Of a DNA stretch of 64,000 nucleotides, positions 1-26,738 are shown piece after piece. The notes under the pieces are model-generated. The model ran no database searches. It had not been told where the DNA came from and worked only from the letters and a program-made list of their open reading frames with translations. The position numbers and the translations under genes are program-made. How positions within the stretch are numbered: the stretch's first letter is position 1; every line of letters begins with the position of its first letter. This stretch comes from an uncultured Planctomycetia bacterium. GTDB lineage: Bacteria > Omnitrophota > Gorgyraeia > 2-01-FULL-45-10. The stretch is from the NCBI GenBank assembly GCA_964352425.1, contig CAYGRZ010000003.1, forward strand, positions 21,077 to 85,076. Reading direction: 5' to 3'.

Positions 1-668
1 CCGATAATAGGCGAAGCGATGCCGGCGATCTCCTTGGGCATTACGGTAACTTCGGCCGCTTTCTCAAAGATCGCAGGGTTCACCCCCATAGGAATACAGG
101 TAGTTCGAGAATTATAGGCTTTACAATATTCCACTAAATTTCTTGCCATGACAAATACTGCGTCCGCCTTCTGTAATACCTGTTTTTCATACGCGATTAT
201 TTTTTTAGCGGATCTTGAGGTTGCTGCAAAGTTGTCAGTGCAGTAGTAAATAAAAGCCTTGTGCGGTATGTTCTCTTGAATATCAAGCGCTATGGGTGTG
301 GGTATAAATGTCCATATGATAGGATTCTGAAACTGCATCACCTTGCCCCAGCGCTGCAGGGAACGTAAAATAAGAAAGCGGTTTATTATGCGCGCCAGTC
401 GTGAGTATGGGAACGGCAGGATAAGCGGGGAATATACATAAAGATTAGGCATCTCCTGACGAAAACCTTTTGTGCTTTTATGCCAATTGACGATCCTTTT
501 CCATATTCTCGAGGTATCGGAGAACCTGGGAGAGCGCACACCGGTGTTCTCGATGAACAATACACGGTTGCCGTTTTTGGCAAAGGCCGTCATGATTTCC
601 TGGTGCTGCTGCCAGATAAAATCCCAGTCAATACTTGATATGCATATAATATCTTCGCCTGTCAGCAT
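1..668 (-). CDS. Glycosyltransferase family 4 (GT-B), N-terminal part; the gene runs off the window start
   Basis: Not in the ORF track. Translating the minus strand from the ATG at 666..668 gives MLTGEDIICISSIDWDFIWQQHQEIMTAFAKNGNRVLFIENTGV..., a typical GT4 N-terminal domain. The frame stays open to position 1. Confidence 0.55.
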   Translation of the reverse strand, partial: MLTGEDIICISSIDWDFIWQQHQEIMTAFAKNGNRVLFIENTGVRSPRFSDTSRIWKRIVNWHKSTKGFRQEMPNLYVYSPLILPFPYSRLARIINRFLILRSLQRWGKVMQFQNPIIWTFIPTPIALDIQENIPHKAFIYYCTDNFAATSRSAKKIIAYEKQVLQKADAVFVMARNLVEYCKAYNSRTTCIPMGVNPAIFEKAAEVTVMPKEIAGIASPII

Positions 669-853
669 CTACTATTTTAACCCCCATATTACATACAACC
701 GGTCCGGACGACAAATCTCCAGCCCGGAACCGACAATCAGCCGGATTTTATATATTTCTTGTTGGATGCTATTATATTATTATATTAGCGTATATGCAAG
801 AGTATAAAAAGGCGGGAATAACAGGCATTAAGCAGGGCTATCGGAGGCCCTAA

Positions 854-2335
854 TTATTTAATAGGCGTCTTCGTCTTATTAAAATATGTCATGCAAAACC
901 TTAAAAAATATAATGGATTATGCAATAGCTTAAAAATGATCTTATCCAGGAACTTTTTCGGGTTTCTGACCAAATACAGGAAATATAATTTTAACTTTTC
1001 CCTAAGAACCAGGCCCATAAGTGTTTTTCGGGGCAGGCCCTTGGTTTCGAAGCTCGGATAATCGGACTTTAACCTTGCATAGTCAAGCCCATCATCGATC
1101 AATTTTAGCGATTTACAGGTTTCCAAAAGCCTTGTTCCCGGCAACGGTGTGGCATAGAAAAAATTTGTGGTATCAAGCTGCAGATTTTCAGCGAATCTGA
1201 AGGTATTTTTTAACGACTTCCTGGTTTCTCCCGGAAGACCGACTACAAAAAATCCCGAGGTTTCTAGCCCCAACGTTTTCGATTTATCAATGATCGGTTT
1301 TATCTGAGAAAGTTCGATAGGTTTTTTTATAACGTTCTTTAGCATATATTCATCGCCGGACTCTATACCTATGCTTATTGCATAGCAGCCGCTCTTCTTC
1401 ATCAGATCAAGCATCTGGCCATCAAGAGTCTGCACAGCTACGCCATTCGGCACATTCCATAATATGTTAAACTCTTTTGCGATAATACCCGAAAAAATTC
1501 TCTTTGCCCTGTCTCCGTCTAAAGTCAAATTATCGTCTTCAAATAATATCTCCTTAACCCCGAATCGCTTCATAAGATACTCGATTTCCATTAAGACGTT
1601 TTCGGCTGATCTTTTTCTGTAATTTCTTCCCCAAACATTATGGATTGAACAAAAAATGCATTCAAACGGGCACCCGCGCGATGTTATAAGCGGCAGAAAA
1701 GGCACTTTTCTTGCAGGGCTCCCATGAGGGTTGTTGATCTTGAAATATTTTTCAAGAGGGAATATGTCCCAATATGGAAATTCTATGCCGTCAAGGTTTT
1801 CGATTGGGATCCTTTTCCTGGTTATTACGGCTGTTCCGTTTTTTCTGAAACCTATTCCATCAACCTTATCTAGATCTGATCTATTTTCTACAACATCTGC
1901 AAGCTCGACAAGCGTCCTCTCCCCCTCACCGATAACGACATAATCAGTATCATTATCAGCAAGGACCCTTTTTGGCTCAGCGGAAGGATGCGCGCCTCCC
2001 AAGACTGTTATAATGCCCCTGCTTATACTTTTAGCTGCACTGCAAACTTTATACACATTTTCAGTTTGCGCAGAAAAAAGACATGAAACCCCGACCATAT
2101 CCGGTTTCAGATCATAAATTTTACGTTTAATTTCTTCGAATGTTGACCCAAACCTGATAAAGTCTTCATCCACCGGCTCTTCCTGATAAAAGCCTTCAGC
2201 CAATGCATCCATCACATGAACATCATGCTTTTTTCTAAGCGCCGATGCTAGATATGCCAATCCTAAAGGCGGATGGCATTTTTTTGTTTCTGTTTTATAG
2301 ATAGTATATGGCGGCTGAATTAAAAGGATCTTCAA
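854..2335 (-). CDS. B12-binding domain / radical SAM (class B) enzyme
   Basis: 493 aa. N-terminal cobalamin-binding-like domain (MKILLIQPPY...VLGGAHPS) and a CxxxCxxC radical SAM motif (RGCPFECIFCS). Confidence 0.8.
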   Translation of the reverse strand: MKILLIQPPYTIYKTETKKCHPPLGLAYLASALRKKHDVHVMDALAEGFYQEEPVDEDFIRFGSTFEEIKRKIYDLKPDMVGVSCLFSAQTENVYKVCSAAKSISRGIITVLGGAHPSAEPKRVLADNDTDYVVIGEGERTLVELADVVENRSDLDKVDGIGFRKNGTAVITRKRIPIENLDGIEFPYWDIFPLEKYFKINNPHGSPARKVPFLPLITSRGCPFECIFCSIHNVWGRNYRKRSAENVLMEIEYLMKRFGVKEILFEDDNLTLDGDRAKRIFSGIIAKEFNILWNVPNGVAVQTLDGQMLDLMKKSGCYAISIGIESGDEYMLKNVIKKPIELSQIKPIIDKSKTLGLETSGFFVVGLPGETRKSLKNTFRFAENLQLDTTNFFYATPLPGTRLLETCKSLKLIDDGLDYARLKSDYPSFETKGLPRKTLMGLVLREKLKLYFLYLVRNPKKFLDKIIFKLLHNPLYFLRFCMTYFNKTKTPIK

Positions 2336-2337
2336 TT

Positions 2338-3129
2338 CTATTTCTTTCTAAGTTCTGCCACGACAGTAAATCCGCACCATGTAAATGGGAACGTTTTGCC
2401 CCAATACTTTGAAATCAGGTAAGAAAGGAAGCCTAATGCTTTTTGCACCACACCAGGCATCCTGACTATCAGGCTTCCCGGCAAATAATATGACCCTATC
2501 GACTGCATTATTTCAGCATCAAAATGTTTCAGATAATCAATGAACTCAAAAGATGAATAAATATACTGATGCGTTGGATCCCAAGCATTCCATTTATAAT
2601 CTCTAACAAATGCCTCGATAATTTTGCCTTCCAGGCCTGCAAATGATATTTTATTCGGAGTTGATATATAAAGCCTTGCCCCCTTCCTGGAAATTCTCAA
2701 TAATTCACCGATAGCTTGTGTATGTTTTTCTTTTGGAAGATGCTCTAAGACTTCAAAGGCTATTACTGTATCAAAATATGCATCTTTAAAAGGCAGCTTA
2801 TAAATATCGGAGCATAAGTAATGTATTTTCGCAGATAAGTCGTCATTTACCAATTTGGCGCCATTTAAGGAAAAGAGATCTTTATCGCAAAGAACTATTG
2901 TCGAGGATCTCTCCGCATAGGTCTTTTCCAATAAGCCTATATTGCTGCCGATATCGATAGTGGCACCAAGAGTCTTGTTCTTATTTAAAATATCACTGTA
3001 AAGTTTAAATCTATATTTGTCGAAAGGACTTTCATTGAACCTGGCCTTCATCTCTTCAACATAGCTTAGGAGATCCGCATTATTATGCGAATCGCGTATT
3101 CGCTCCTCATTTTGTTTTGAGCTATGCAT
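2338..3129 (-). CDS. Class I SAM-dependent methyltransferase
   Basis: 263 aa with the Rossmann motif I-like IDIGSNIGLL and acidic motif II VIAFEVLEHL. It sits 3 nt downstream of the radical SAM gene. Confidence 0.65.
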   Translation of the reverse strand: MHSSKQNEERIRDSHNNADLLSYVEEMKARFNESPFDKYRFKLYSDILNKNKTLGATIDIGSNIGLLEKTYAERSSTIVLCDKDLFSLNGAKLVNDDLSAKIHYLCSDIYKLPFKDAYFDTVIAFEVLEHLPKEKHTQAIGELLRISRKGARLYISTPNKISFAGLEGKIIEAFVRDYKWNAWDPTHQYIYSSFEFIDYLKHFDAEIMQSIGSYYLPGSLIVRMPGVVQKALGFLSYLISKYWGKTFPFTWCGFTVVAELRKK

Positions 3130-3130
3130 G

Positions 3131-4438
3131 TCAGTACGACTCTTTTTCTACTAAATTACTTATATTCGAAGCCACGCCCTCCTCTATGCTAATGGAGGTC
3201 GCCTTAGACCTTTTAAATGACACAAAAAGCCACGCGACCACCACCGCTTCGCAAAAAAGGGTAGATAAAACCGCACCGTTAATGCCTAACCTTGGTATCA
3301 TAAAGCAATTCAAAATTACATTGCCGACAATCCCTAGAAGGTATATTTTGCAAATCAAAAATTGTTTTCTCAGCGCAAATAGCAATCTTTCGAATACAGG
3401 CTTTATGAAAAAAGGGGCCAGGAGCAGGGAAAGTGTCGCTAAATACTTACTCGCATCGTCAAATTTTGCCCCATAAACAACCCTGATAATATCGCTCCCC
3501 TTAGCATATATGGCCGCTATGAACAAAAAGCTTATCAGGACTAAAGTTAACACGGATCTTTTTATTAAGACATCAATACTATTTATAGAATCGGATAGTT
3601 TAGAAAAGACCGGGAAAAAAACTGCAGATAAAGTTACGGGAATCAAGAAAAGCTGTTCCAGAAGCTTGAAGTCCGCGCTAAACCAACCGGCCGCCATATC
3701 CCCTTTTATCAAAGTTAACATCATTATATCGATTCTAAAATTCAGAAAACCTAAAATATATATCAAGATCAACGGCGAGGAAGCCCTGAGAAGACGTCTC
3801 CATAATCCATAATCTATCGAAAACGAAATAACTTTAACATTATGTAAAAAAGCAAACAGGCTTGTTAAGCAATTAATAAAGCTGGCAACGAGCAATCCGA
3901 CAGCAATGAATACGGGCCCATGGATATTAAGATTCGTTTTGGTTATAGAGAATATGATCCCCAATTTTATAATAGACTCCAAGATCATCAGCATTCCTTC
4001 GTAGTGCATTGTTTCGTTTACCCGAAAAATATACCTGAAAAAATACATAAATGAATCTGATATTACAGAAATGCCTAAAATAAGAATTATCCAGAATTTG
4101 CCTGAACTCAATGACGTCAATTTAGCCAAAACAATAATAACTAAAATATTGGCTATGGCTAACAATACTTTTAGCGTAACAATATTATTTATGTATTTAT
4201 GAAGGAATCCCCTATTATGAGAAACGTCTCGAAGAAAGATATCAGTCAGGCCAAAATCGGCTAAAAATAGAAATACCCAGACAAAAGAAAGACAATACGA
4301 AAGTTCGCCAAAGCCGTCTACACCTAAAAATCTCGCTATCAAAATCATTACGAAAAGATTGATTATTTTAAATATCGCCTGCGAAAATATCAGGCTGGAG
4401 AAATTCGTAAATATTTTATGTATTTGTTCTTTAGTCAT
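3131..4438 (-). CDS. Polysaccharide biosynthesis protein / Wzx-type oligosaccharide flippase (MOP superfamily)
   Basis: 435 aa, about 12 hydrophobic helices, N-terminus typical of the Wzx/PST family (FKIINLFVMILIARFLGVDGFG). Confidence 0.6.
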   Translation of the reverse strand: MTKEQIHKIFTNFSSLIFSQAIFKIINLFVMILIARFLGVDGFGELSYCLSFVWVFLFLADFGLTDIFLRDVSHNRGFLHKYINNIVTLKVLLAIANILVIIVLAKLTSLSSGKFWIILILGISVISDSFMYFFRYIFRVNETMHYEGMLMILESIIKLGIIFSITKTNLNIHGPVFIAVGLLVASFINCLTSLFAFLHNVKVISFSIDYGLWRRLLRASSPLILIYILGFLNFRIDIMMLTLIKGDMAAGWFSADFKLLEQLFLIPVTLSAVFFPVFSKLSDSINSIDVLIKRSVLTLVLISFLFIAAIYAKGSDIIRVVYGAKFDDASKYLATLSLLLAPFFIKPVFERLLFALRKQFLICKIYLLGIVGNVILNCFMIPRLGINGAVLSTLFCEAVVVAWLFVSFKRSKATSISIEEGVASNISNLVEKESY

Positions 4439-5544
4439 TTTGACCCGGTTATTTTATCTTTGTCTGCGCTACTTAAAAGTTGTTCGGTGATAGTATTATA
4501 AATTACATTGGCAAAAATTGCGTGGGCGGCCTTATTAGGGTGTTCGTTTTCAGGATAAATGATCAAGTCGCCCGTATCTAACCCTTTATATAAGTCCGAT
4601 GGGTAGGTATTTACAAAATAATAGCCGTATTTTTTACACTCGGATCGCACGGTGTCCTGAAAGTCCTTATGGAAGTTCCGGGCGTGAATCGAGAACATCT
4701 TGCGAACCAACACGATGACAACCCGCACGTTTTTATCTTTGATGCTGCCTCTTATTTCGTTGAAATAGCCGGATATTTTTTTATCGCTGAACCTGGAAAG
4801 ACCCGACCCGCTGCCTGATGCATAGCTCGTCTTGTAACGGACAAGATAGTTTTTAGCATTATCCCTTAGAACTGTTAATGAATTGAGGATAAAGGAATTG
4901 GCATAAATGTTGTTGTATATTCTTTGCAAAAGGCCGGGCTTCTCAGAGCTTTCGATGAGGCTATTCTTGTTGAATGCCTCATCAGAAATAGGGAAAAAAT
5001 TCGAAGTGAGCCCAATAAGAACGACGTCAGGAGCATAGTCATTACATGCTTTCCCAAGCCGCTTAATAAGGGACTTGTTAAAGCTATCACCCGCTACTGC
5101 AAAGTTAATAACTTCAATAGTATTTATTCCTAAGCGAGAATCATCCCTTAAAAATTCATTCAATCGTTTTTCAAGGACGCTGACATAGTTATCTTTCTGA
5201 TAAACACCCGTTCCCATCGTAAAAGATTCCCCGAAACAAGCGACTCGCCATACACCGGGCTTCTTTTTCTTCTCACAATCTTGCGACTGCCAGAGTCCGT
5301 CCGCGTTAGTTCTATAGGGCTTACCGTATAAATATCCTTCTTTATCAGGCAAGAGCGCAATAAGCCCATTATCGTTAATATACGAGATTTTTTTAAGCCC
5401 GGCCGCCGGAGAATATTTCACTAAATCCAGCCCCTTGAGCCCGAAAATGTGCAGCCGAAAATACGCCTCGCCAAATAGTAAAAGAGCGAGGTTTAACCCG
5501 AAAAAAAGGAGCACAAAGAAGATGGGTCTATTTTTATTTAGCAT
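4435..5544 (-). CDS. SGNH/GDSL-like hydrolase-fold protein, probable O-acetylation partner of the MBOAT (AlgJ/AlgX/DltD-like)
   Basis: 369 aa. N-terminal TM anchor and a GDS-like block VACFGESFTMGTG. It overlaps the stop of the downstream MBOAT gene by 4 nt. Confidence 0.4.
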   Translation of the reverse strand: MLNKNRPIFFVLLFFGLNLALLLFGEAYFRLHIFGLKGLDLVKYSPAAGLKKISYINDNGLIALLPDKEGYLYGKPYRTNADGLWQSQDCEKKKKPGVWRVACFGESFTMGTGVYQKDNYVSVLEKRLNEFLRDDSRLGINTIEVINFAVAGDSFNKSLIKRLGKACNDYAPDVVLIGLTSNFFPISDEAFNKNSLIESSEKPGLLQRIYNNIYANSFILNSLTVLRDNAKNYLVRYKTSYASGSGSGLSRFSDKKISGYFNEIRGSIKDKNVRVVIVLVRKMFSIHARNFHKDFQDTVRSECKKYGYYFVNTYPSDLYKGLDTGDLIIYPENEHPNKAAHAIFANVIYNTITEQLLSSADKDKITGSK

Positions 5545-5546
5545 GT

Positions 5547-6995
5547 TTAGAATTTGAAATATATAAATTTTTGATCTACAGGAAGACTGTAAATTCCGCC
5601 GAAGATCAGTGAATAGGCAATAAAATATACGATAACCGTGCCGACAAGCACTTTTCCCCTCACGCTAAGCATCTGCAGCACCTCTAAGTCATTACGCCTA
5701 TATTGGAGATACTCCACAGCAAATATGACCAGAGAAAGGAAAACAAACAGGGAGAATTGTCTGCCTGATATGAAATTTGACAAAGAGATATTGCCGATTA
5801 AAGCCGTCAGCATGCTCCCGATCTGACTGAAAGAATTTGCCTTGAAGAGAAGCCAGCCCGCGCAGACAAGGTGGAAAAAGAATATGATGCGCAGCCACTT
5901 CCATATCTTCCCGGCAAAAATATTTTTTGGGGACGGTACGCGCGCAAGGACCGGCTCGATTATTTTATGTATGCATAGTAAAAGACCATGGTAGGCACCC
6001 CAGATGATAAATGTCCACGCAGCGCCGTGCCAGAGCCCGCCCAGAAGCATCGTAACGAAAAGGTTGCGATATGTCATCGCCCCCCCTTTTCTGTTCCCGC
6101 CCAGAGGAATATACAGGTAATCTCTGAGCCAGGTTGACAGGCTGATATGCCATCTATGCCAAAAATCGCGCGGGTTGGTAACAAAGTAGGGCAGGTTGAA
6201 ATTGACCATTATATCGAATCCCATGCACCTGCCCAATCCCATGGCGATCTGAGAATATCCGTTAAAATCACAATATATCTGTACTGTGAACGCATATATG
6301 GCCAGAAGGATCTTGGCCCCGTCGTAAGGAGGCGCCGCAGAAAAAACGGGATCGACTATTCCCGCCAAATTGTCGGCAATGAATACCTTTAGGAACAATC
6401 CCCAAAGGATCAGAAATGCTCCTCCATATACCTTGGCTAATGTTATTCTCCGGGGTGATTGTACTTGAGGCAGCAGATGTGCGCCTCTTTCGATGGGTCC
6501 TGCTATAAGCAACGGAAAAAAGGAGACGAGCAGAGCATAATCTACCAGACTTTTTACCGGAACGAGCTTCTTCCTGTAAACGTCGATTGTATAGCTCATC
6601 GTTTTAAAAGTATAAAACGATATCCCGACGGGAAGAATGATGTGCAATAAGTTAATATTGACTCTGAGTCCCAGGCTCTGCAGAAACATTTGAAAATTAG
6701 AAGCAAAAAAATTGAAATATTTAAAAAATCCCAGAATGGAAAGGTTGATGAATATGCTGATCAATAAAAAACGTTTTCTTCGCACCGCATCATCGGATGC
6801 GCATATCTTCTGGCTGCAAATAAAATCGGTTATGATGGAGGTGAACATCAAAAACAAGAACCTGTAATCCCAGCTGCCATAAAAAACACAGCTTGCCGCA
6901 AGGAGCAGCCTGTTCTGCCATTTGTGGCCCAACACAAGATACAGGCCGTAAACGATTACGAAGAATATCCCGAATTGCAAGCTGTTGAATAACAT
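5547..6995 (-). CDS. MBOAT family membrane-bound O-acyltransferase (AlgI/DltB-like)
   Basis: 482 aa, multi-TM, with the hallmark MBOAT motif FWHRWHISLSTWLRDYLYIPLGGNRKG and its catalytic His. Confidence 0.8.
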   Translation of the reverse strand: MLFNSLQFGIFFVIVYGLYLVLGHKWQNRLLLAASCVFYGSWDYRFLFLMFTSIITDFICSQKICASDDAVRRKRFLLISIFINLSILGFFKYFNFFASNFQMFLQSLGLRVNINLLHIILPVGISFYTFKTMSYTIDVYRKKLVPVKSLVDYALLVSFFPLLIAGPIERGAHLLPQVQSPRRITLAKVYGGAFLILWGLFLKVFIADNLAGIVDPVFSAAPPYDGAKILLAIYAFTVQIYCDFNGYSQIAMGLGRCMGFDIMVNFNLPYFVTNPRDFWHRWHISLSTWLRDYLYIPLGGNRKGGAMTYRNLFVTMLLGGLWHGAAWTFIIWGAYHGLLLCIHKIIEPVLARVPSPKNIFAGKIWKWLRIIFFFHLVCAGWLLFKANSFSQIGSMLTALIGNISLSNFISGRQFSLFVFLSLVIFAVEYLQYRRNDLEVLQMLSVRGKVLVGTVIVYFIAYSLIFGGIYSLPVDQKFIYFKF

Positions 6996-7018
6996 AGATA
7001 CCGGTTCCTGTTAATAGG

Positions 7019-7897
7019 CTATGCTTTAATCCTATTCGAATCATGGATTCTTTTAAGCTGGTCGTTTAATAACCCCAAACAAAAGATGGGCATAAAGCTT
7101 GCGACACATATCGCGGAGATGAGCCAAAGCCAGGCATGTTTGAAAAATATGCCATTGAGCACAAAAAGCAATATGCCGAATACGGCGTTGGCTGTCGCTA
7201 ATAATAAGAACAGTTTTATCGGATTATAGAATAATATCATCTCCACGATCATTTGAGCAGCTCTTAGAGTATCCCTAAAATGCCTTATCTTCGACTTCCC
7301 CACACGCTTCAGATATGTTATGGGGACGTATTTAATATAATGGTTGTTCAGAAAGAAAATCAGCGTTAGGGATGTGGTGAACGAAAAGCCCGTGCATAAT
7401 GAGCTGCCCAGGGGCATAACTATGCTTTTTTTAAATATTCTGAAGCCTGAATTCACATCCGCTATTTTCCTGCCGCACGCGTACTCCGCAAGGCGATTGA
7501 ACATAAAACGAGCCGGGTTTTTGAAAATGCCCTTCTTGTACTCTTTTCCGGTCCTGGCGCCGACGATCATGTCATACTGGGGATAATATTCCTTCAGACG
7601 CTTAATCTCGTTCGCCGGATAAGAGCCATCCCCATCCATGATGAGGATGCATTCGTGCTTTGATGCTGCTATCCCATCGTAAAGCGATCGTCCATACCCT
7701 AAATTTTCCACATGATTTATTATCCGGACATTCTTCATATCAGCCCGCTTAAGAACATCGATCGTATTATCCGTGGAACCGTCATTCACCACTATAATTT
7801 CATATTCTTTATAAACACTAAGCTCTTTCGCGATACTGCCCAAGACGGAGGGAAGTCCCTCCGCTTCGTTATATGCTGGAATTATGACACTTATCAT
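7019..7897 (-). CDS. Glycosyltransferase family 2 (Dpm1/GtrB-like polyprenyl-phosphate sugar transferase)
   Basis: 292 aa. MISVIIPAYNEAEGL...VVNDGSTDNT, a DxD-type GT-A N-terminal domain, plus two C-terminal TM helices. Confidence 0.75.
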   Translation of the reverse strand: MISVIIPAYNEAEGLPSVLGSIAKELSVYKEYEIIVVNDGSTDNTIDVLKRADMKNVRIINHVENLGYGRSLYDGIAASKHECILIMDGDGSYPANEIKRLKEYYPQYDMIVGARTGKEYKKGIFKNPARFMFNRLAEYACGRKIADVNSGFRIFKKSIVMPLGSSLCTGFSFTTSLTLIFFLNNHYIKYVPITYLKRVGKSKIRHFRDTLRAAQMIVEMILFYNPIKLFLLLATANAVFGILLFVLNGIFFKHAWLWLISAICVASFMPIFCLGLLNDQLKRIHDSNRIKA

Positions 7898-7918
7898 GAG
7901 ATGACCTCCCGGGTTATT

Positions 7919-9322
7919 TTACCAACTTGTCTGTAAAAAAGCCTTTGCATGTGCCAGTATCGTCCCATTCATCAGAGTCCTAAAAAAGGTTTTCGTTATA
8001 TAGCTGAAACGGAAGTAAAATGTTTTGTATGACGCGTTATAGTATTTATCTATTGTCTCCCACGAAAGATTGTCGTGGTCGTAGAGCTCTTTAGGCGAAG
8101 CAGCGAAATTATATTTATCCCAATCCCTTGTCTTGATCTGCCCTTTCTTCAGCATTGAATCGAACATCTCGGTCCCTGGCAGCGGTATCGTTATCGCGAA
8201 TTTTACGTAATCCGGGTCGAGCTTGATAGCAAAATCGATGGTCTTTTTCAGATCCTCCTCCGTCTCCGAGGGAAGGCCCAGCATAAAATAACATTCTATC
8301 TCAAGACCTGCCTCTCTAGCCGACTTAACGGCGCTCTCTGCCTGCTCAAGAGAAATATTTTTATGGATCGAATCTATTATTCGCTGGCTTCCTGACTCGA
8401 TACCAAAAGGAATCCTGTAGCAACCGGCCCTCTTCATCATCTTAAGAAGCTCGAGATTGATCCTATCCACACGTATCCCGCCTCTCGGATACCACGGGAA
8501 TTTGAGACCTCGGCGCATTATCTCTTCGCAAATAGAATGAGCCCTTTTCATATCTGCGGTAAAGACATCGTCTATTATATGTATTTCCCTGAACCCCAAT
8601 CTGAGCATCCGTTCCATCTCATCAACTACGCGGCCGACAGATTTCATCCTCAACTTATAGCCGTGTATATTTTTATTGCAAAATACACACCTGCCGTAAC
8701 ATCCCCTGGATGTTTCAATATATCCAAGAGGAGCCCTTCTGCTGGAGATCCGCGGCTGATAGTACTTCTTTATATCAAAAAGCTCATAAGCAGGAAAAGG
8801 AAGCTCGTCTAGATTCTCTATAAAATCATTTTGAATTTGAGAGGTAACGACCTCTCCTTTATCCCTGTAGGTAACATTAGGGACTCTCCGGGAAAGGCCT
8901 TCCCGCGCGATCAAATTCAATATAAAATCTCCCTCCCCCTTAACAACACCGTCTATCCTGCTTTCATTGAGGACATCTTCGGAAAGTGAGGACGGATGCG
9001 GCCCGCCGACAACGATGGTTATGCCTTCATCCATATCTTTTATTGCCTCGGCAAGATGATACGCCTTCTTAATGACCGGCGTGGTAGAGGTAATCCCAAC
9101 CAACCCGGGGCTAAACTCCGCAACCGCTTTTCGAAGCTCTTTATCGGGATCATCGCTAAGATTAAGATCCAATAATTTAACTTTATGGCCATCCCTTAAA
9201 AGCGGTGCGGCTATGCATGCCAATCCTAAAGAAGTCGTACCTCGTGAAATCGCCGATCTCACCTTAGACTTGCCGAAGATATCTTCGTAATAGTTTGGAT
9301 TGATGAGCAGGATTTCGGCCAT
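7919..9322 (-). CDS. B12-binding domain / radical SAM (class B) enzyme
   Basis: The track ORF extends to 9496. I placed the start at the ATG at 9320..9322 (MAEILLINPNYYE), which avoids overlap with the upstream gene. B12-binding-like N-terminus (ITIVVGGPHPS) and CxxxCxxC (SRGCYGRCVFCNK). Confidence 0.75.
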   Translation of the reverse strand: MAEILLINPNYYEDIFGKSKVRSAISRGTTSLGLACIAAPLLRDGHKVKLLDLNLSDDPDKELRKAVAEFSPGLVGITSTTPVIKKAYHLAEAIKDMDEGITIVVGGPHPSSLSEDVLNESRIDGVVKGEGDFILNLIAREGLSRRVPNVTYRDKGEVVTSQIQNDFIENLDELPFPAYELFDIKKYYQPRISSRRAPLGYIETSRGCYGRCVFCNKNIHGYKLRMKSVGRVVDEMERMLRLGFREIHIIDDVFTADMKRAHSICEEIMRRGLKFPWYPRGGIRVDRINLELLKMMKRAGCYRIPFGIESGSQRIIDSIHKNISLEQAESAVKSAREAGLEIECYFMLGLPSETEEDLKKTIDFAIKLDPDYVKFAITIPLPGTEMFDSMLKKGQIKTRDWDKYNFAASPKELYDHDNLSWETIDKYYNASYKTFYFRFSYITKTFFRTLMNGTILAHAKAFLQTSW

Positions 9323-9327
9323 TTTTG

Positions 9328-10698
9328 CTAACGAGCCTCCCCTGCCGTATCGCACGTGCGTCCTATCGATCCAAAAGCAACTGCCATTGCAATAAAAAAC
9401 CAAAAATGCCTCATTGTAATTATATCGATGTAAAACGCATTTAAAAGAAATCCGATAAATCCGGCCAGGAAGAACCGATATATTGTCTTTACGCATCCGT
9501 TTTCAACCCGCAGCTTTTTTCTCAAATATAAAATGAAAGCGACAAAAAACACGAGCAAGCTGCCGAGCCCGATGAATCCGGTCTCTGCGGCCCATCCAAG
9601 ATACGTAGAGTGAGGGTCATGCCCTCTTTTGTATATATCCTCGTCCTTCTTTGTCAAACCGGGATACATCATGCGATATGGCCCCTCGGCCTCGCTCCAC
9701 TTGACATACCCGGCTGATTTAACATTATACATTCCCATGCCTACTCCGATAAAAGGATGCGATTTTGCAATATCGAGCGCTGCCTTTTGCTGTATAAAAT
9801 AGGACTGATGAGTAAAATTAATATCTACCCTAACGGTCTCAGTCCCGGGGAGCCTGCTGACTTTTACGGGAAGTATCCACCAAACGGTCATAAAAAAAAC
9901 GCAGACAATAAGTGCCATAGCCATTAGAAAAGAGAGGTATTTCATAACCGATACCAGCCTGGTCCTTAATGGGAATGCGGCTAATACCAAAAATATGCTC
10001 AACATTATCCCCGCATTATCCCTGGCTTTGGTTAAATAAGCGGCCAATACGCATAGGATTATGGAAATATATACCCAAGATGTACTTCGCCGCTTCGGTA
10101 AAAGCCTTACCGCCAGAATAAAACCGAAGATTATACTGACATGCAAGTAGCATGCAAACATACCCGGATGTTGAAAAATGGATACGGCCCGATAGACCAG
10201 ATCATGGCTTGCGAAACCAAGAAGGCCATACTTGTCCAAGAGAAATGTCTCTATCCCAAAAAAAGAAAGGACGTAAGCGCCGATAGCGGTTATAGAAAGC
10301 ACCGCGCTCAACGCTACCCAGACTTCTACCAGGCGCCACCACATGTTTTCCGAAGAAACCAGCTGAGCAACCAAATAATACATACATACTAAATAAAGTA
10401 TTCCCGCAAATTCGATGCCGCTGTGCAAAACGTTTCCGGAGTTAATAAACGATAATGAAAATGCCAGCAGGACGAGAAATAGCGGATATAACGGTTCTAT
10501 CCTATGCGCAACCTTATTCCCCTTTACGATTTGCGTAAACCATAATAAAAATATTACAGCAAATACGAGGTCGGAGTACTGTATTTTATTTATCGAGCTG
10601 AAGGGGGTTATTTTCATAAGGGGGATCAGCACGATATATAGAAATAGTAATTTTTGAGTTAGCTCTGAATTTTTTAAAGAAGCGATTATTCTTTTCAT
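9328..10698 (-). CDS. O-antigen ligase / Wzy-like polymerase family membrane protein
   Basis: 456 aa, about 10-12 TM helices, and a periplasmic loop carrying the Wzy_C-like motif GHDPHSTYLGWAAETGFIGL. Confidence 0.55.
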   Translation of the reverse strand: MKRIIASLKNSELTQKLLFLYIVLIPLMKITPFSSINKIQYSDLVFAVIFLLWFTQIVKGNKVAHRIEPLYPLFLVLLAFSLSFINSGNVLHSGIEFAGILYLVCMYYLVAQLVSSENMWWRLVEVWVALSAVLSITAIGAYVLSFFGIETFLLDKYGLLGFASHDLVYRAVSIFQHPGMFACYLHVSIIFGFILAVRLLPKRRSTSWVYISIILCVLAAYLTKARDNAGIMLSIFLVLAAFPLRTRLVSVMKYLSFLMAMALIVCVFFMTVWWILPVKVSRLPGTETVRVDINFTHQSYFIQQKAALDIAKSHPFIGVGMGMYNVKSAGYVKWSEAEGPYRMMYPGLTKKDEDIYKRGHDPHSTYLGWAAETGFIGLGSLLVFFVAFILYLRKKLRVENGCVKTIYRFFLAGFIGFLLNAFYIDIITMRHFWFFIAMAVAFGSIGRTCDTAGEAR

Positions 10699-10834
10699 AA
10701 TTCCCCCGCTAAGGATGCCGCATCCCTTGAGCGTTTCATTGCAAAACGCGGATATGCCCCGTCTTCGTCATTTAAGATGTTCTAAAGATTATACTTCCCA
10801 GCAACCGTTTTGTCGATAGAATATGCCTATACAA

Positions 10835-11584
10835 CTAATTGCCTTCCTGATGGTTAGGAGATATTCTATCTATTTTTAGCGCTTTACGCGCCTCATAGAC
10901 AAGGCGCCATAAAGGCATTTGGCGGTCTGGCCTGATTACGGCGGGTTTTGATATGCTGGACAAGTTATAAAAAAAGTCCTTATAGGATATTCCATTTATC
11001 TCGATGGTGTCCACGTCTTTACCGCTTACAATAGATGGATTCTTTACGATATTGTCAATGTCGGCTATCTCTCCGGCTCCGGTCCTGAAATATATGCCGC
11101 GATAAGCATCGAAGACGCACCACTCTCCATTCAGCATTACTAACGATATATAATATCCCGATGCGCTTCTCTTGCCATATACAGCCCCATAAAAAGCAGG
11201 GATATTAGTATAGGTGCATAAAGTCGTGAACACATCCTGAAATTGCTCAGGCAAAGCATGGCCTCGTATTATTATATTCAGTATATGATCATCGCATACC
11301 GGCATGCCCGCTGGAACATCTTTCAGGTTATCCCGTGTCCATTTAAGTATAGCTAGTGTTTTTAATTCATCTGTCTTACAGCCAACCGTTATCTCTTTAG
11401 CGAGCCTGGCATACTCATAATGGCGCGATAGGAACTGAATCCACTTTACGTAAAGAGGCATGTGAACAGATCTGTAGTGGCCGTTTACGCCTACTCGGAT
11501 CGACGCATCACTATTCATCATCATAATAGCGGCAGCGAGGAGCAAAACTATTATAATAATGTTTCGACTTTTACGCGTCATCAT
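10835..11584 (-). CDS. Hypothetical secreted or membrane-anchored protein (possible transglutaminase-like fold)
   Basis: 249 aa with an N-terminal hydrophobic segment (IIIIVLLLAAAIMMM) and spaced Cys/His/Asp residues. No confident family assignment. Confidence 0.3.
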   Translation of the reverse strand: MMTRKSRNIIIIVLLLAAAIMMMNSDASIRVGVNGHYRSVHMPLYVKWIQFLSRHYEYARLAKEITVGCKTDELKTLAILKWTRDNLKDVPAGMPVCDDHILNIIIRGHALPEQFQDVFTTLCTYTNIPAFYGAVYGKRSASGYYISLVMLNGEWCVFDAYRGIYFRTGAGEIADIDNIVKNPSIVSGKDVDTIEINGISYKDFFYNLSSISKPAVIRPDRQMPLWRLVYEARKALKIDRISPNHQEGN

Positions 11585-11892
11585 GGCGCATCCATTTTTA
11601 GTTTACCAAAGCCCGCTCAAGCGCATCCAGCACGATGCTTCCCTCGTATATGTTGACCGACACTATCTCCGCATATTTTATTAAGATCACAAGCCATTGC
11701 CTGAGAACTCGCGCTAATACGGATTGCCTGAACATTATTATTAAAATCGCACGCAAACGCCGACCCGCCGCGATAATGATGCGGCTAACCCACGCCGTCT
11801 GAAAACATTTTTTACAATACGAGTCTAGCGAATTACAGGCAGATATTAACGCGCTTACAAAACTCATTACATATTTTACGAGAATGGAGCTA

Positions 11893-12417
11893 TTAATCAT
11901 TGCCATTCGAACGTCCATCGATATCAAGGATAACGCCTTTCTCAAGAGTATAGAACTCGTTATATATGGTGATCGGGGAATTTATTTTTATGGGCACATT
12001 GGTGCAGTAATATTCCCCATGCAATTTCGCACAGGCGGCCTTAATGAGCACGGTAACATCGCTCCAACCCCGAAGAACGGACAGGACCTTATCGCTGTAG
12101 ATCGCGGGTTTTCCGTCCATTGCCGTTACGTCCGCCGCCGATATAGGGACAACTTTCAAGACTTTTACAATGGTTGCCTTTCCCGCAAGAACTTTATCTC
12201 CTGACTGCAGTACTTTTTTATTATCCAGCACCTGATCTAAAACAGTAAAACGCACCTTTATAAGTTTCTCTACGGAACTGTCGCTACGTCTACCGCATAC
12301 CTTAAGCTGTAGGTTAACGATAAAACTACCGATTAAGGCAGCCACCAAGACTAAAACGAAGAGATCAATAAGATTGATCATGCCGAAGAGCCGACCTTTT
12401 CCATCCACGATTCGCAC
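11893..12417 (-). CDS. Hypothetical protein with N-terminal TM anchor
   Basis: 174 aa. Hydrophobic N-terminal helix (LIDLFVLVLVAALIGSFIV) and a beta-rich C-terminus. Its frame is followed by a 115-aa ORF (11598..11945) in another frame, so a frameshift is possible. Confidence 0.35.
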   Translation of the reverse strand: MRIVDGKGRLFGMINLIDLFVLVLVAALIGSFIVNLQLKVCGRRSDSSVEKLIKVRFTVLDQVLDNKKVLQSGDKVLAGKATIVKVLKVVPISAADVTAMDGKPAIYSDKVLSVLRGWSDVTVLIKAACAKLHGEYYCTNVPIKINSPITIYNEFYTLEKGVILDIDGRSNGND

Positions 12418-23247: not shown

Positions 23248-24338
23248 CTTTTTTTCCTCAATTGACCGACCGTTATTTCAAGTATCTTCCTGGCAGAAGA
23301 AAGATCGCTATAGGACCCTCTCTTATCGCGTCGGTTTTTTCTCGATGCAAAATGCGCGAGTGCCTTGGCGATTTTGCGTTTGTCGACACCGGCAAGGATG
23401 TTCCATCCGGATTCGACGGTCTCGACCCACTCGGTCTCTTCCCTTAAGGTTACGCAGGGTATCTTCAGAAAATACGCCTCTTTCTGCACCCCGCCCGAAT
23501 CTGTGAGTATCGCGGCGGCGTTCATCTCAAGCATCAGCATATCGACATACGGGACCGGCTCTATGCCAACGATATTGCCAGCCAGGCGTATCCCGTGCTT
23601 TGCGATGATATGCTTCGTCCTGGGGTGGACAGGAAATATGACCGGCTTAGCGAGCGCTCCGAACGCTTCAATAAGACGTTTCAGCCTTGCTATATCGTCG
23701 GTATTGTAGGACCTGTGGACAGTCGCAAGATAATACGCCCCCTTCACGAGCCTAAGGCGCCTCAGGACACCCGACCGCCTCTCGGCGATCCTCGAGTACC
23801 GGACAAGCATATCGAGCATGACATCCTCGACCCGGAACACCCCGTTCGTTATGCCTTCGGCCCGCAGATTTTCGATCGCCGTCTTTGTCGGGCAGATCAT
23901 GATATCCGACACGCTGTCCGTCATAATCCTGTTTATCTCCTCCGGCATAGAACGGTTAAAGCTCCTCAGGCCTGCCTCAATATGCACGAGCTTAGCGCCG
24001 GCCTTTTTCGCCGCGACGGCGCCGGCAAGCGTAGAGTTGGTATCGCCATAAACGACAACGGCATCCGGCCTCTCTTTTGCGAATATCACGCCGAGCCCTT
24101 TTATCATCTTCGCTATCTGCTGTGTGCCGGGCCCGGACCCGACACCCAGATTGTACGCAGGCTTGCGCATCTTCAGCTGTCTGAAAAAGACATCGGACAT
24201 GTTGCAATCATAGTGCTGTCCCGTATGGACGACGACGGTCCGTATACAGCCGATGTTTCTGGCCGCGTCGGTCACGAGCGCCATCTTGACGAACTGGGGA
24301 CGCGCCCCTACAACATGCAGTATCTTATAACGTTTCAT
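23244..24338 (-). CDS. wecB: UDP-N-acetylglucosamine 2-epimerase (non-hydrolysing; WecB/WbpI family)
   Basis: YKILHVVGARPQFVKMA...HTGQHYD, typical of this family. I placed the start at ATG 24336..24338 (MKRYKIL), which forms an ATGA overlap with the upstream stop. The track ORF extends to 24422. Confidence 0.8.
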   Translation of the reverse strand: MKRYKILHVVGARPQFVKMALVTDAARNIGCIRTVVVHTGQHYDCNMSDVFFRQLKMRKPAYNLGVGSGPGTQQIAKMIKGLGVIFAKERPDAVVVYGDTNSTLAGAVAAKKAGAKLVHIEAGLRSFNRSMPEEINRIMTDSVSDIMICPTKTAIENLRAEGITNGVFRVEDVMLDMLVRYSRIAERRSGVLRRLRLVKGAYYLATVHRSYNTDDIARLKRLIEAFGALAKPVIFPVHPRTKHIIAKHGIRLAGNIVGIEPVPYVDMLMLEMNAAAILTDSGGVQKEAYFLKIPCVTLREETEWVETVESGWNILAGVDKRKIAKALAHFASRKNRRDKRGSYSDLSSARKILEITVGQLRKKR

Positions 24339-26723: not shown

Positions 26724-26738
26724 AGATGATCCCCTGCA

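What the first reader, a model, noticed from the sequence alone, without database searches (positions are those of the whole stretch)
854..3129. B12-dependent radical SAM enzyme tightly coupled to a SAM methyltransferase inside a glycan locus (pair 1 of 2)
A class B (cobalamin-binding) radical SAM gene is followed 3 nt later by a class I methyltransferase and then a Wzx flippase. A second such rSAM-MT pair sits at 25332..27452. A third B12-rSAM (7919..9322) lies between a GT2 and the Wzy-like gene. Known class B rSAMs catalyse methylation or other chemistry at unactivated carbons in antibiotic and cofactor pathways. Three of them among glycosyltransferases, flippases and nucleotide-sugar enzymes suggests radical tailoring of a sugar or glycan, for example C-methylated or branched sugars. 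I believe no function has been shown for these rSAM genes in polysaccharide loci, but I ran no search.
Basis: partly seen in the sequence, partly recalled or inferred. Interest (0 to 1): 0.8.

Follow-up and report, generated by a model that had tools for sequence, protein, structure and literature searches.

The report
Cobalamin radical SAM enzymes in glycan locus
The window carries three real vitamin-B12-type radical SAM enzyme genes inside a cell-surface polysaccharide gene cluster; they belong to large uncharacterised families, common in uncultured anaerobes, that most likely decorate sugars by radical chemistry, but the neighbouring methyltransferase is an optional companion, not an obligatory partner.

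Summary
On the minus strand, 854..2335 encodes a 493-aa protein with a B12-binding domain, a radical SAM core, a CxxxCxxC motif and conserved cobalamin motifs. A class I methyltransferase (2338..3129) lies 2 nt upstream and a Wzx flippase lies before that. The second pair and the third rSAM are also real.

- **Glycan role: well supported.** Homologues occur in many uncultured anaerobes. They mostly sit among glycosyltransferases, often 2-4 paralogues per locus. Some are fused to GT2, a sugar nucleotidyltransferase or a class I methyltransferase.
- **Tight coupling to the methyltransferase: not supported.** The 2-nt gap is typical of this operon. MT1 orthologues are few and never fused. One relative has Wzx-MT1-GT4/DUF218 with no rSAM, and most rSAM1 orthologues lack MT1.
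- **Conserved partner.** This is the downstream ~620-aa GT4-DUF218 glycosyltransferase, adjacent in 10 of 14 orthologous loci.
- **Pair 2.** Its conserved core is aminotransferase-rSAM-SDR. MT2 is replaced in an 85%-identical relative.

No curated family cutoff is met; the best match is Sden_1168, at 296 of 575 bits. The chemistry is inferred, not shown. C-methylation is most likely, rearrangement is possible, and P-methylation is unsupported. Two reviews (2022, 2026) mention no polysaccharide role.

The parts
854..2335 (-). rSAM1: 493-aa cobalamin-type (class B) radical SAM protein, TTG start
   Evidence: Pfam B12-binding 94.1 bits and Radical_SAM 76 bits. AF2 model pLDDT 92.7. Foldseek to AprD4, MgmA, TsrM, CysS, TokK and OxsB, TM 0.61-0.70. 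2524 homologues at E<=1e-10.
1901..2302 (-). B12-binding Rossmann domain of rSAM1 (residues 12-145), with G82-x-S84-x-L86, G113-G114 and G136-E137
   Evidence: Pfam. Motif conservation in A1, A2 and A3. Motif definitions from PMC9204698.
1649..1672 (-). [4Fe-4S] cluster motif C222-x3-C226-x2-C229 of rSAM1
   Evidence: invariant in 139 sequences.
2338..3129 (-). MT1: 263-aa class I SAM methyltransferase ('type A'), 2 nt upstream of rSAM1
   Evidence: Pfam Methyltransf_11 48.4 bits. AF2 pLDDT 89.1. Generic class I MT fold matches, including the sugar O-MT RebM. 17 orthologues, none fused.
3..668 (-). N-terminal 222 aa of the 618-aa GT4-DUF218 glycosyltransferase (runs off the window start); the conserved partner of rSAM1
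   Evidence: Translation is identical to the L003 gene. Pfam Glyco_trans_1_4 plus DUF218 93.7 bits. Orthologues are 47-65% identical over the full length.
3131..4438 (-). Wzx-type flippase
   Evidence: Polysacc_synt 82.4 bits.
4435..6995 (-). GDSL/SGNH protein (4435..5544) and MBOAT/DltB-like O-acyltransferase (5547..6995)
   Evidence: The same rSAM3-GT2-MBOAT-GDSL order occurs in Omnitrophica L058.
7019..7897 (-). GT2 glycosyltransferase
   Evidence: Glycos_transf_2 102 bits.
7919..9322 (-). rSAM3: B12-domain radical SAM paralogue (CYGRCVFC); best NCBIfam match is HpnJ at 199.6 bits, below the cutoff
   Evidence: A 46% orthologue in L058 has the same downstream genes.
9328..10698 (-). Wzy-like polymerase
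   Evidence: Wzy_C 33.2 bits against a cutoff of 31.7.
25332..26723 (-). rSAM2: B12-domain radical SAM paralogue (CSLNCIFC)
26739..27452 (-). MT2: class I methyltransferase next to rSAM2, not conserved there in relatives
   Evidence: Replaced by a 358-aa non-MT gene in L085.
27460..28464 (-). Short DegT-family aminotransferase; with SDR 24338..25273 it forms the conserved flank of rSAM2
   Evidence: DegT-rSAM-SDR is conserved in L085 and L086.
24338..25273 (-). SDR epimerase/dehydratase-family protein downstream of rSAM2

Best explanation
rSAM1 is a cobalamin-dependent (class B) radical SAM tailoring enzyme of a Wzx/Wzy-type surface-glycan pathway.

Shown:
- It has the three-cysteine cluster site, the radical SAM core, and an N-terminal Rossmann domain with the GxSxL, GG and GE cobalamin motifs.
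- Its orthologues sit immediately upstream of a conserved ~620-aa GT4-DUF218 glycosyltransferase in glycan loci.
- The wider family is repeatedly fused to glycan enzymes.
- rSAM1 is an optional insert in an otherwise conserved Wzx-MT-GT4/DUF218 module.

Inferred:
- It acts on the sugar residue made or used by GT4-DUF218, probably at the lipid-linked oligosaccharide stage.
- The 5'-deoxyadenosyl radical abstracts a hydrogen from an unactivated sugar carbon, and methylcobalamin delivers a methyl group. This gives a C-methylated sugar, as GenK and GenD1 do on aminoglycosides. A second SAM re-methylates cob(I)alamin.
- Class I methyltransferases (MT1 upstream, or a different MT fused C-terminally in relatives) add independent O- or N-methyl groups to the same residue.
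- rSAM2 and rSAM3 are distant paralogues doing analogous but distinct tailoring. rSAM2 sits in a conserved aminotransferase-rSAM-SDR cassette, which suggests an amino-sugar substrate.
For: - Domains and motifs: read against the motif definitions in PMC9204698.
- Fold: AF2 pLDDT 92.7. The nearest solved structures are class B rSAMs and AprD4.
- Glycan linkage: GT4-DUF218 lies directly downstream in 10 of 14 orthologous loci. The GT4-DUF218 proteins are 47-65% identical.
- Among the 47 family loci of at least 15 kb, 36 have at least one recognisable GT and 26 have at least two B12-rSAMs.
- Pfam-confirmed fusions to GT2, NTP_transferase, a DegT fragment, FemAB/GNAT and class I MT.
- Optional-module pattern: L092 has MT1 and GT4-DUF218 but no rSAM.
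- Methylase preference: methylation is the commonest class B activity (PMC11659888 abstract; PMC12931638). The closest curated family is the P-methylase Sden_1168. 18 of the 66 closest homologues carry a fused class I MT, which suggests a methylation-rich tailoring step.
- DUF218 proteins SanA and ElyC act on Und-P-linked envelope polymer balance (PMC12176290).
Against: - No experiment exists on any member, and every close homologue comes from an uncultured MAG or SAG.
- No sequence or structural feature used here separates methylases from non-methylating class B enzymes. The top Foldseek hit, AprD4, is a non-B12 diol dehydratase. HpnJ, BchE and OxsB are non-methylases with comparable scores.
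- 8 of the 47 longer family loci, all at 41% identity or less, showed no recognisable glycan gene with my limited reference set.
- The substrate stage (NDP-sugar or lipid-linked) is not resolved. The NTP_transferase and DegT fusions in distant members point to the NDP-sugar level.
Confidence: 0.5

Rival explanations
1. rSAM1 tailors the glycan by non-methylating radical chemistry. Candidates are ring contraction or rearrangement (as proposed for HpnJ and shown for OxsB), dehydration/deoxygenation (AprD4-like), oxidation or epimerisation. The class I MTs supply all the methyl groups.
For: HpnJ and BchE are the second- and third-best NCBIfam matches for rSAM1 and the best for rSAM2 and rSAM3. 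One family member in a locus reaches E=4e-131 to HpnJ. AprD4, which acts on an aminoglycoside sugar, is the top structural match, and OxsB is also matched. Abundant class I MTs in these loci could account for all methylation.
Against: All HpnJ, BchE and AprD4 scores are far below the family cutoffs. AprD4 lacks cobalamin, whereas the GxSxL, GG and GE motifs are conserved here. Methylation is the predominant known class B activity.
Confidence: 0.25
2. rSAM1 is a P-methyltransferase like Sden_1168 or PhpK. It would make a methylphosphinate or methylphosphonate decoration on the glycan.
For: NF038361 (Sden_1168 family P-methyltransferase) is clearly the best curated match: 296 bits, against 190 for the next. 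64 of 88 locus paralogues match it at E<=1e-50.
Against: The score is about half the 575-bit cutoff, and none of the 88 reaches it (best E 2.8e-101). No ORF in the fetched loci has the PEP mutase motif EDKx5NS. No phosphonate gene turned up among the main ORFs of window 854-61042 scanned with Pfam. The physiological substrate of SD_1168 is itself unknown (PMC9204698).
Confidence: 0.05
3. MT1 and rSAM1 form an obligate two-enzyme unit, the first reader's 'tight coupling'. For example, MT1 makes an O-methyl group that rSAM1 extends, as CysS does on a methoxy group, or the MT serves the rSAM directly.
For: The 2-nt spacing. The MT1 orthologue lies directly upstream of the rSAM1 orthologue in L026. 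18 of the 66 closest homologues are rSAM-MT fusions, and L081 has the free-standing form of that fusion MT. The CysS structures with methoxy and ethoxy substrates show the chemical precedent.
Against: L092 keeps MT1 and GT4-DUF218 without any rSAM. Nine of 14 orthologous loci have no adjacent MT. The fusion MT is a different type, 23% identical to MT1 and C-terminal. MT1-family proteins are never fused. The 2-nt gap is ordinary for this operon.
Confidence: 0.1
4. The rSAMs do not act on the glycan at all. Their targets might be a lipid, cofactor or peptide, and their position in the locus would be incidental or due to horizontal co-transfer.
For: Class B rSAMs modify lipids (HpnP/R, ladderane candidates) and peptides. 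Eight longer family loci lacked recognisable glycan genes, including tandem arrays of 3-5 rSAMs plus an MT in L040 and L057 (L048 and L080 carry similar arrays). The low-GC 1-12 kb segment looks like a mobile or variable cassette.
Against: Covalent fusions to GT2, NTP_transferase and a DegT fragment. There is conserved operonic placement between Wzx or GT2 and GT4-DUF218 across phyla. Three paralogues sit in one glycan operon.
Confidence: 0.1

Closest known systems
GenK / GenD1 (gentamicin) and Fms7, MoeK5: cobalamin-dependent rSAM C-methyltransferases acting on sugars of glycosylated antibiotics
   Same: Class B architecture, a sugar substrate in an assembled glycoside, and work alongside class I N/O-methyltransferases, aminotransferases and dehydrogenases. 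Pair 2 here is DegT-MT-rSAM-SDR, which resembles the GenS2/GenN/GenD1/GenD2 logic (that comparison is from my own knowledge; the enzymes are listed in PMC9204698).
   Different: Those are secondary-metabolite pathways of actinomycetes. Here the context is a Wzx/Wzy surface polysaccharide with a GT4-DUF218 partner. Sequence relatedness to GenK or GenD1 could not be tested, because no model or sequence was available in the tools.
Sden_1168 (SD_1168) / PhpK family B12-rSAM P-methyltransferases (NCBIfam NF038361, TIGR04479)
   Same: Best curated profile match: 296 bits over residues 2-407.
   Different: Below the 575-bit cutoff. No phosphonate biosynthesis genes were found nearby. The native substrate of SD_1168 is unknown.
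HpnJ (hopanoid cyclitol ether formation) and OxsB (oxetanocin): non-methylating B12-rSAMs that contract sugar rings
   Same: Class B fold, and a sugar moiety as substrate. HpnJ is the best profile for rSAM2 and rSAM3 (197-200 bits). OxsB is a structural match.
   Different: Scores are far below the HpnJ cutoff of 577.6. There are no hopanoid genes, and the context is a polysaccharide.
AprD4 (apramycin C3' deoxygenation; radical SAM diol dehydratase)
   Same: Top Foldseek match (E 1.6e-25, TM 0.69-0.70) and the second sequence match in the PDB. It acts on an aminoglycoside sugar.
   Different: As I recall, the N-terminal domain of AprD4 does not bind cobalamin. rSAM1 keeps the GxSxL, GG and GE cobalamin motifs. 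The NCBIfam AprD4 score is 83 bits against a cutoff of 500.
CysS / TokK: iterative class B methylases that extend an existing methyl or methoxy group
   Same: Structural matches. The logic of a class I O-methylation followed by B12-rSAM methylation could explain the rSAM-MT fusions.
   Different: Their substrates are carrier-bound small molecules. Identity is about 17%, and there is no evidence for alkyl ether sugars here.
TIGR04295 'B12_rSAM_oligo' family (B12-rSAM of a glycosyltransferase-rich conserved cluster, function hypothetical)
   Same: A curated but uncharacterised B12-rSAM family that I recall as linked to oligosaccharide genes.
   Different: rSAM1 scores 79 bits against a cutoff of 400, so it is not a member.

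Membership tests
Radical SAM superfamily | CxxxCxxC motif for the [4Fe-4S] cluster within a partial TIM-barrel core | tested here: met
   C222/C226/C229 are invariant in 139 sequences. Pfam PF04055 76 bits against a cutoff of 29.5. AF2/Foldseek matches to rSAM structures.
Class B (cobalamin-dependent) radical SAM | N-terminal Rossmann B12-binding domain | tested here: met
   PF02310 94.1 bits against a cutoff of 32.1, residues 12-145. The model has alternating strands and helices over residues 2-151.
Class B (cobalamin-dependent) radical SAM | Base-off cobalamin motifs: downstream GxSxL-type motif, Gly-Gly on beta4, Gly-Glu at alpha5 (as defined in PMC9204698) | tested here: met
   G82-V-S84-C-L86, G113-G114 and G136-E137. 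GG occurs in 128 of 139 and GE in 123 of 139 relatives. rSAM2 has GIAVV, GG and QE; rSAM3 has GITST, GG and GE.
Class B (cobalamin-dependent) radical SAM | Actual cobalamin binding and cobalamin-dependent turnover | not testable with these tools
   Needs protein biochemistry.
Sden_1168 family P-methyltransferase (NF038361) | Whole-protein score at or above the curated cutoff of 575 bits | tested here: not met
   296 bits. The best of 88 locus paralogues has E 2.8e-101.
Sden_1168 / PhpK P-methyltransferases | Phosphonate/phosphinate pathway context (PEP mutase) | tested here: not met
   No EDKx5NS motif in any ORF of the fetched loci. No such Pfam family among the main ORFs of window 854-61042.
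HpnJ (TIGR03471) | Score at or above 577.6 bits; hopanoid gene context | tested here: not met
   rSAM1 176, rSAM2 196.7 and rSAM3 199.6 bits. No hopanoid genes in the window.
BchE (TIGR02026), the label given by several sources | Score at or above 481 bits | tested here: not met
   190 bits. The JGI names 'Mg-protoporphyrin IX monomethyl ester cyclase' on homologues are over-annotations.
GenK/GenD1-type sugar C-methyltransferases | Sequence clustering with GenK or GenD1; methyl transfer to a sugar carbon | not tested
   No profile or sequence for these enzymes is available in the libraries used.
Class I SAM-dependent methyltransferase (MT1) | Rossmann-like MT fold with a SAM-binding motif | tested here: met
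   PF08241 48.4 bits against a cutoff of 21.2. AF2 pLDDT 89.1, with Foldseek matches to many class I MTs at E about 1e-13. The substrate is not deducible.
Wzx/Wzy-dependent glycan assembly locus | Flippase, polymerase, glycosyltransferases and an initiating phosphoglycosyl transferase | tested here: met
   Wzx x2, Wzy, GT2 x2, GT4 x2 and GT-C x2 in the window. A WecA-family Glycos_transf_4 gene, a second Wzy and a GT9 lie just beyond the window start on the source contig L003.

The most novel reading that the evidence does not exclude
A large, phylogenetically broad family of cobalamin-dependent radical SAM enzymes installs C-alkyl or other radical-derived modifications on cell-surface glycans. 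The family was confirmed at 483 places in the scan of one genome per species: Omnitrophota, Planctomycetota including anammox relatives, Desulfobacterota, Nitrospirota, Methanoperedens, Hadarchaeota and DPANN archaea. The enzymes would work as plug-in modules around a GT4-DUF218 glycosyltransferase. Many uncultured anaerobes would then display sugars with chemistry, such as C-methylated or ring-rearranged residues, not yet recorded for surface polysaccharides. Several such enzymes per locus (2-4 counted here) would generate combinatorial glycan diversity.
Probability: 0.4. Interest if true: 0.75.

Novelty: new variant of a known kind. Interest (0 to 1): 0.55.

Why it matters
Known cobalamin-dependent radical SAM enzymes that touch sugars come from antibiotic or hopanoid pathways. 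Neither review checked (2022 and 2026) mentions a role in polysaccharide or glycan assembly.

If these enzymes modify surface glycans, three things follow:
- A new substrate class opens up for class B rSAM chemistry.
- It would explain why anaerobic, cobalamin-rich lineages carry several such genes per glycan locus.
- Glycomics of these organisms would need to look for C-methyl or rearranged sugars, which MS alone would misread as O-methyl. For example, the Kuenenia S-layer glycan is heavily methylated and the methyl positions are unresolved (PMC5088730).

The natural with/without-rSAM locus pair and the conserved GT4-DUF218 partner make the question directly testable.

Tried and rejected
1. 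The rSAM-MT fusions as a Rosetta stone for MT1. Rejected: the fused MT is C-terminal, 23% identical to MT1, and has its own free-standing orthologue in L081 at 51% identity.
2. P-methylation suggested by the Sden_1168 best hit. No PEP mutase motif or phosphonate genes were found, and the scores are below the cutoff.
3. Reading the genomic context of SD_1168 from Allen & Wang 2014. The paper (PMC4362910) is not held, and a search for 'Sden_1168' found nothing.
4. Identifying the source organism. The exact-protein look-ups gave only Logan or NCBI contig ids without taxon names. The best-hit taxonomy points to Omnitrophota or PVC relatives, but this is not established.
5. A Foldseek search of the MT1 model to infer its substrate. 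It returned only generic class I MT matches, including RebM/AtmM sugar O-MTs, TleD and CmoM, so it does not discriminate.
6. An Rfam scan for riboswitches or RNA genes found nothing in the 64 kb.
8. One Pfam call failed on a mis-framed reference.
9. Literature searches for B12-rSAM with polysaccharide, O-antigen, capsule or DUF218 returned no relevant study.
10. Structure prediction of GT4-DUF218 was not possible, because only 222 aa of it lie in the window.
Full report
**1. What is in the sequence**

All relevant genes lie on the minus strand in one densely packed operon-like array.

- ORF 854..2335 (TTG start) encodes 493 aa. It has a Pfam B12-binding domain (94.1 bits, residues 12-145) and a Radical_SAM domain (76 bits, residues 217-382). 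It carries the motif C222-PFE-C226-IF-C229.
- The TTG start is the correct one. Homologues align from residue 1 (MKILLIQPP...), and P8, P9 and P23-L24-G25 are invariant in a 39-sequence family alignment. Public gene calls of 452 and 468 aa therefore start too late.
- MT1 (2338..3129, 263 aa) is a class I methyltransferase (Methyltransf_11, 48.4 bits). Its stop codon ends 2 nt before the TTG.
- Upstream again is a Wzx flippase (3131..4438). In transcription order the array runs Wzx, MT1, rSAM1, then a 185-nt gap, then a gene that runs off the window start (3..668).
- That last gene is the N-terminus of a 618-aa protein with a GT4-type glycosyltransferase domain and a C-terminal DUF218 domain. 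It is seen in full on the source contig L003.
- The second pair is real: rSAM2 25332..26723 and MT2 26739..27452. So is the third rSAM, 7919..9322, between GT2 and Wzy.
- The rest of 1-45 kb is a very large glycan locus. It holds two Wzx genes, one Wzy, GT2/GT4/GT-C transferases, six class I MTs, a carbamoyltransferase, a deacetylase, an MBOAT plus SGNH pair, aminotransferases and rml genes.

**2. Is it more than chance?**

Three B12-domain rSAM genes in 33 kb of glycan genes is clearly non-random. The MT adjacency is not, if judged inside this window alone.

- With 6 MTs among about 32 genes, a given rSAM has about a 0.36 chance of an MT neighbour. Two of three doing so has a chance of about 0.3 (my estimate from the gene list).
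- The 2-nt spacing is typical of the whole array, where gaps run from -4 to +23 nt.
- The three rSAMs are only 27-32% identical. MT1 and MT2 share nothing beyond the fold. The two 'pairs' are therefore independent, not a duplicated module.

**3. What rSAM1 is**

- It meets the defining features of a class B rSAM that can be checked by sequence.
- Besides the cluster motif, it has the three cobalamin motifs described from the OxsB, TsrM and TokK structures (PMC9204698). These are G82-x-S84-x-L86, G113-G114 and G136-E137, all conserved in the family.
- The AlphaFold model is confident (pLDDT 92.7).
- Its closest solved folds have TM 0.61-0.70. They are AprD4, the MCR glutamine methylase MgmA, TsrM, CysS, TokK and OxsB.
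- No curated family claims it. The best NCBIfam match is the Sden_1168 P-methyltransferase family at 296 bits (cutoff 575). It is followed by BchE (190/481), HpnJ (176/578) and PhpK (138/600).
- The JGI names calling homologues 'Mg-protoporphyrin cyclase' are over-annotation.

**4. Relatives and their neighbourhoods**

- The protein search found 2524 homologues at E<=1e-10. The closest are 57-63% identical. The few that carry a source name are labelled Omnitrophota or Omnitrophica MAGs, and none is characterised.
- A scan of one genome per species confirmed 483 places that encode a relative. The best 80 come from Omnitrophota, Planctomycetota (including an anammox MAG), Desulfobacterota, Nitrospirota, Methanoperedens, Hadarchaeota and DPANN archaea. 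All are MAGs or SAGs.
- I annotated the loci against the window's own Pfam-labelled proteins. Of the 47 loci of at least 15 kb, 36 carry at least one recognisable glycosyltransferase. Thirty carry at least three glycan genes, and 26 carry at least two B12-rSAM paralogues (up to four counted).
- Pfam confirms covalent fusions of family members. Partners are a GT2 (L008), a sugar nucleotidyltransferase (L063/L064), a DegT fragment (L073), a FemAB/GNAT domain (L074) and a second rSAM (L076).
- Eighteen of the 66 closest homologues are rSAM plus class I MT fusions of about 766 aa.
- Together this is strong genomic evidence that the family works on glycans or nucleotide sugars.

**5. The real partner**

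- Fourteen loci hold an orthologue at 50% identity or more with downstream sequence available.
- In 10 of them the ~620-aa GT4-DUF218 gene follows directly. These are the window/L003, L001, L006, L007, L026, L058, L088, L090 and L091, plus L081 with one MT in between. It does not follow in L004, L005, L008 or L089.
- These GT4-DUF218 proteins are full-length orthologues, 47-65% identical.
- A methyltransferase is adjacent or fused in only 5 of the 14, and two unrelated MT types are used.
  - 'Type A' (MT1) sits upstream in the window and in L026, at 43% identity.
  - 'Type B' is fused C-terminally in P0024 and P0037 and is free-standing in L081. It is 51% identical to the fusion domain and only 23% identical to MT1.
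- MT1's own family is tiny: 17 orthologues among 5.8 billion proteins, never fused.
- The best-conserved relative, L092, reads Wzx, MT1 (52%), GT4-DUF218 (65%), DUF4330, with no rSAM at all.
- rSAM1 is therefore an optional insert into a conserved Wzx/MT/GT4-DUF218 scaffold. That is the signature of a tailoring enzyme, not of an obligate MT-rSAM unit.
- DUF218 proteins (SanA, ElyC) affect the balance of undecaprenyl-phosphate-linked envelope polymers. The paralogue YdcF binds SAM (PMC12176290). This fits a role at the lipid-linked stage but does not prove it.

**6. Pair 2 and rSAM3**

- rSAM2 has close relatives at 69-85% identity. Across three loci the conserved core is short DegT aminotransferase, then rSAM2, then SDR.
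- In the 85%-identical relative L085, the MT2 position is occupied by a 358-aa non-MT gene. In L086 (50%) an MT follows the SDR. MT2 is therefore not a fixed partner.
- The aminotransferase, rSAM, SDR and optional MT set resembles the logic of garosamine formation in gentamicin. That comparison is from my own knowledge and was not tested by sequence.
- rSAM3 has a 46% orthologue in Omnitrophica L058 with the same rSAM-GT2-MBOAT-GDSL order.

**7. Mechanism**

- Shown: the cofactor sites, the fold, the glycan-locus linkage, the optional-module behaviour and the GT4-DUF218 partnership.
- Inferred: hydrogen abstraction from an unactivated sugar carbon by the 5'-deoxyadenosyl radical, followed by methyl transfer from methylcobalamin. 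The class I MTs would add separate O- or N-methyl groups.
- I prefer methylation for three reasons. It is the predominant class B activity. The nearest curated family is a methylase. The family is also repeatedly fused to an additional methyltransferase.
- Nothing I could compute separates methylases from HpnJ/OxsB-type rearrangements or AprD4-type dehydration, so that rival keeps substantial weight.
- P-methylation is unlikely. No PEP mutase motif occurs in any fetched locus, and no phosphonate gene appears among the window ORFs scanned.

**8. Literature and novelty**

- Full-text searches combining B12 or radical SAM with polysaccharide, O-antigen, capsule, DUF218 or Omnitrophota found no study of such enzymes.
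- The 2022 review lists GenK, GenD1, Fms7, MoeK5 and HpnJ as the sugar-related members and calls SD_1168's substrate unknown. The 2026 review contains no mention of polysaccharide or glycan.
- The S-layer O-glycan of the anammox planctomycete Kuenenia carries up to five methyl groups on six sugars. The positions were assigned only by mass (PMC5088730). This is circumstantial, but it shows that methyl-rich glycans exist in a phylum (Planctomycetota) that also carries such genes, and that C- versus O-methyl has not been examined.
- I rate the finding a new variant of a known kind. It is an uncharacterised, widespread class B rSAM clade recruited to surface-glycan assembly. Its chemistry is still to be shown.

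Noticed in passing
window 38879..41647 (-): A 922-aa UDP-glucose/GDP-mannose dehydrogenase is interrupted by an intein with a LAGLIDADG homing-endonuclease domain (Intein_splicing 41 bits, LAGLIDADG_3 32 bits). An intein-free paralogue lies at 44942..46237.
   Followed up: no
window 1..12000 versus the rest: G+C is 0.38-0.45 in the first 12 kb (rSAM1 to Wzy) against 0.49-0.61 in most bins beyond 14 kb. This low-GC block is the part syntenic with the Omnitrophota loci, which suggests a horizontally exchanged or hypervariable cassette.
   Followed up: partly
L092 6001..8695; compare window 3..3129: This is a natural rSAM-less version of the module: Wzx, an MT1 orthologue, GT4-DUF218 and DUF4330, with only 32 nt between the MT and the GT.
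   Followed up: yes
L063/L064 9167..11482; L008 11502..13715; L074 5994..8417; L076 9980..12760: Single ORFs fuse a B12-rSAM to a sugar nucleotidyltransferase (archaeal MAGs), to a GT2, to a FemAB/GNAT domain, and to a second radical SAM domain.
   Followed up: partly
L040, L048, L057, L080: Tandem arrays of three to five B12-rSAM paralogues are seen; in L040, L048 and L057 they are followed by a small class I MT. L040 and L057 had no glycan genes recognisable with my reference set. This may be a different use of the family.
   Followed up: no
window 27460..28464 (-) and L085 5903..6916: The DegT-family aminotransferase next to MT2/rSAM2 is short (334-337 aa) and covers only profile positions 5-256 of 360. 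It is conserved at that length in a relative, so it is probably not a pseudogene.
   Followed up: partly
window 10835..11584 (-) and 11893..12417 (-): A 249-aa protein with no Pfam or NCBIfam match and a DUF4330 protein recur near rSAM1/GT4-DUF218 modules in other loci: L005, L006, L026, L088, L091 and L092.
   Followed up: no
window 53386..54063 (-): A stand-alone corrinoid protein (B12-binding plus B12-binding_2 cap) lies between an acetyl-CoA carboxylase carboxyltransferase-like gene and an asparagine synthase-like gene, outside the glycan locus.
   Followed up: no
window 46352..48547 (-) and 48544..51380 (-): A 731-aa ORF with no Pfam match is followed by two GGDEF diguanylate cyclases, one with a GAF domain, directly beside the glycan locus. 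This may be c-di-GMP control of polysaccharide production.
   Followed up: no
window 854..2335; P0001, P0243: Public gene calls for rSAM1 start 25 or 41 codons too late (468 and 452 aa). They miss the conserved N-terminus, which begins at a TTG.
   Followed up: yes
L088 8361..10386: CysD/CysN-like sulfate adenylyltransferase genes lie directly after the rSAM1-GT4/DUF218 pair in one orthologous locus. This hints at sulfated glycans there.
   Followed up: no
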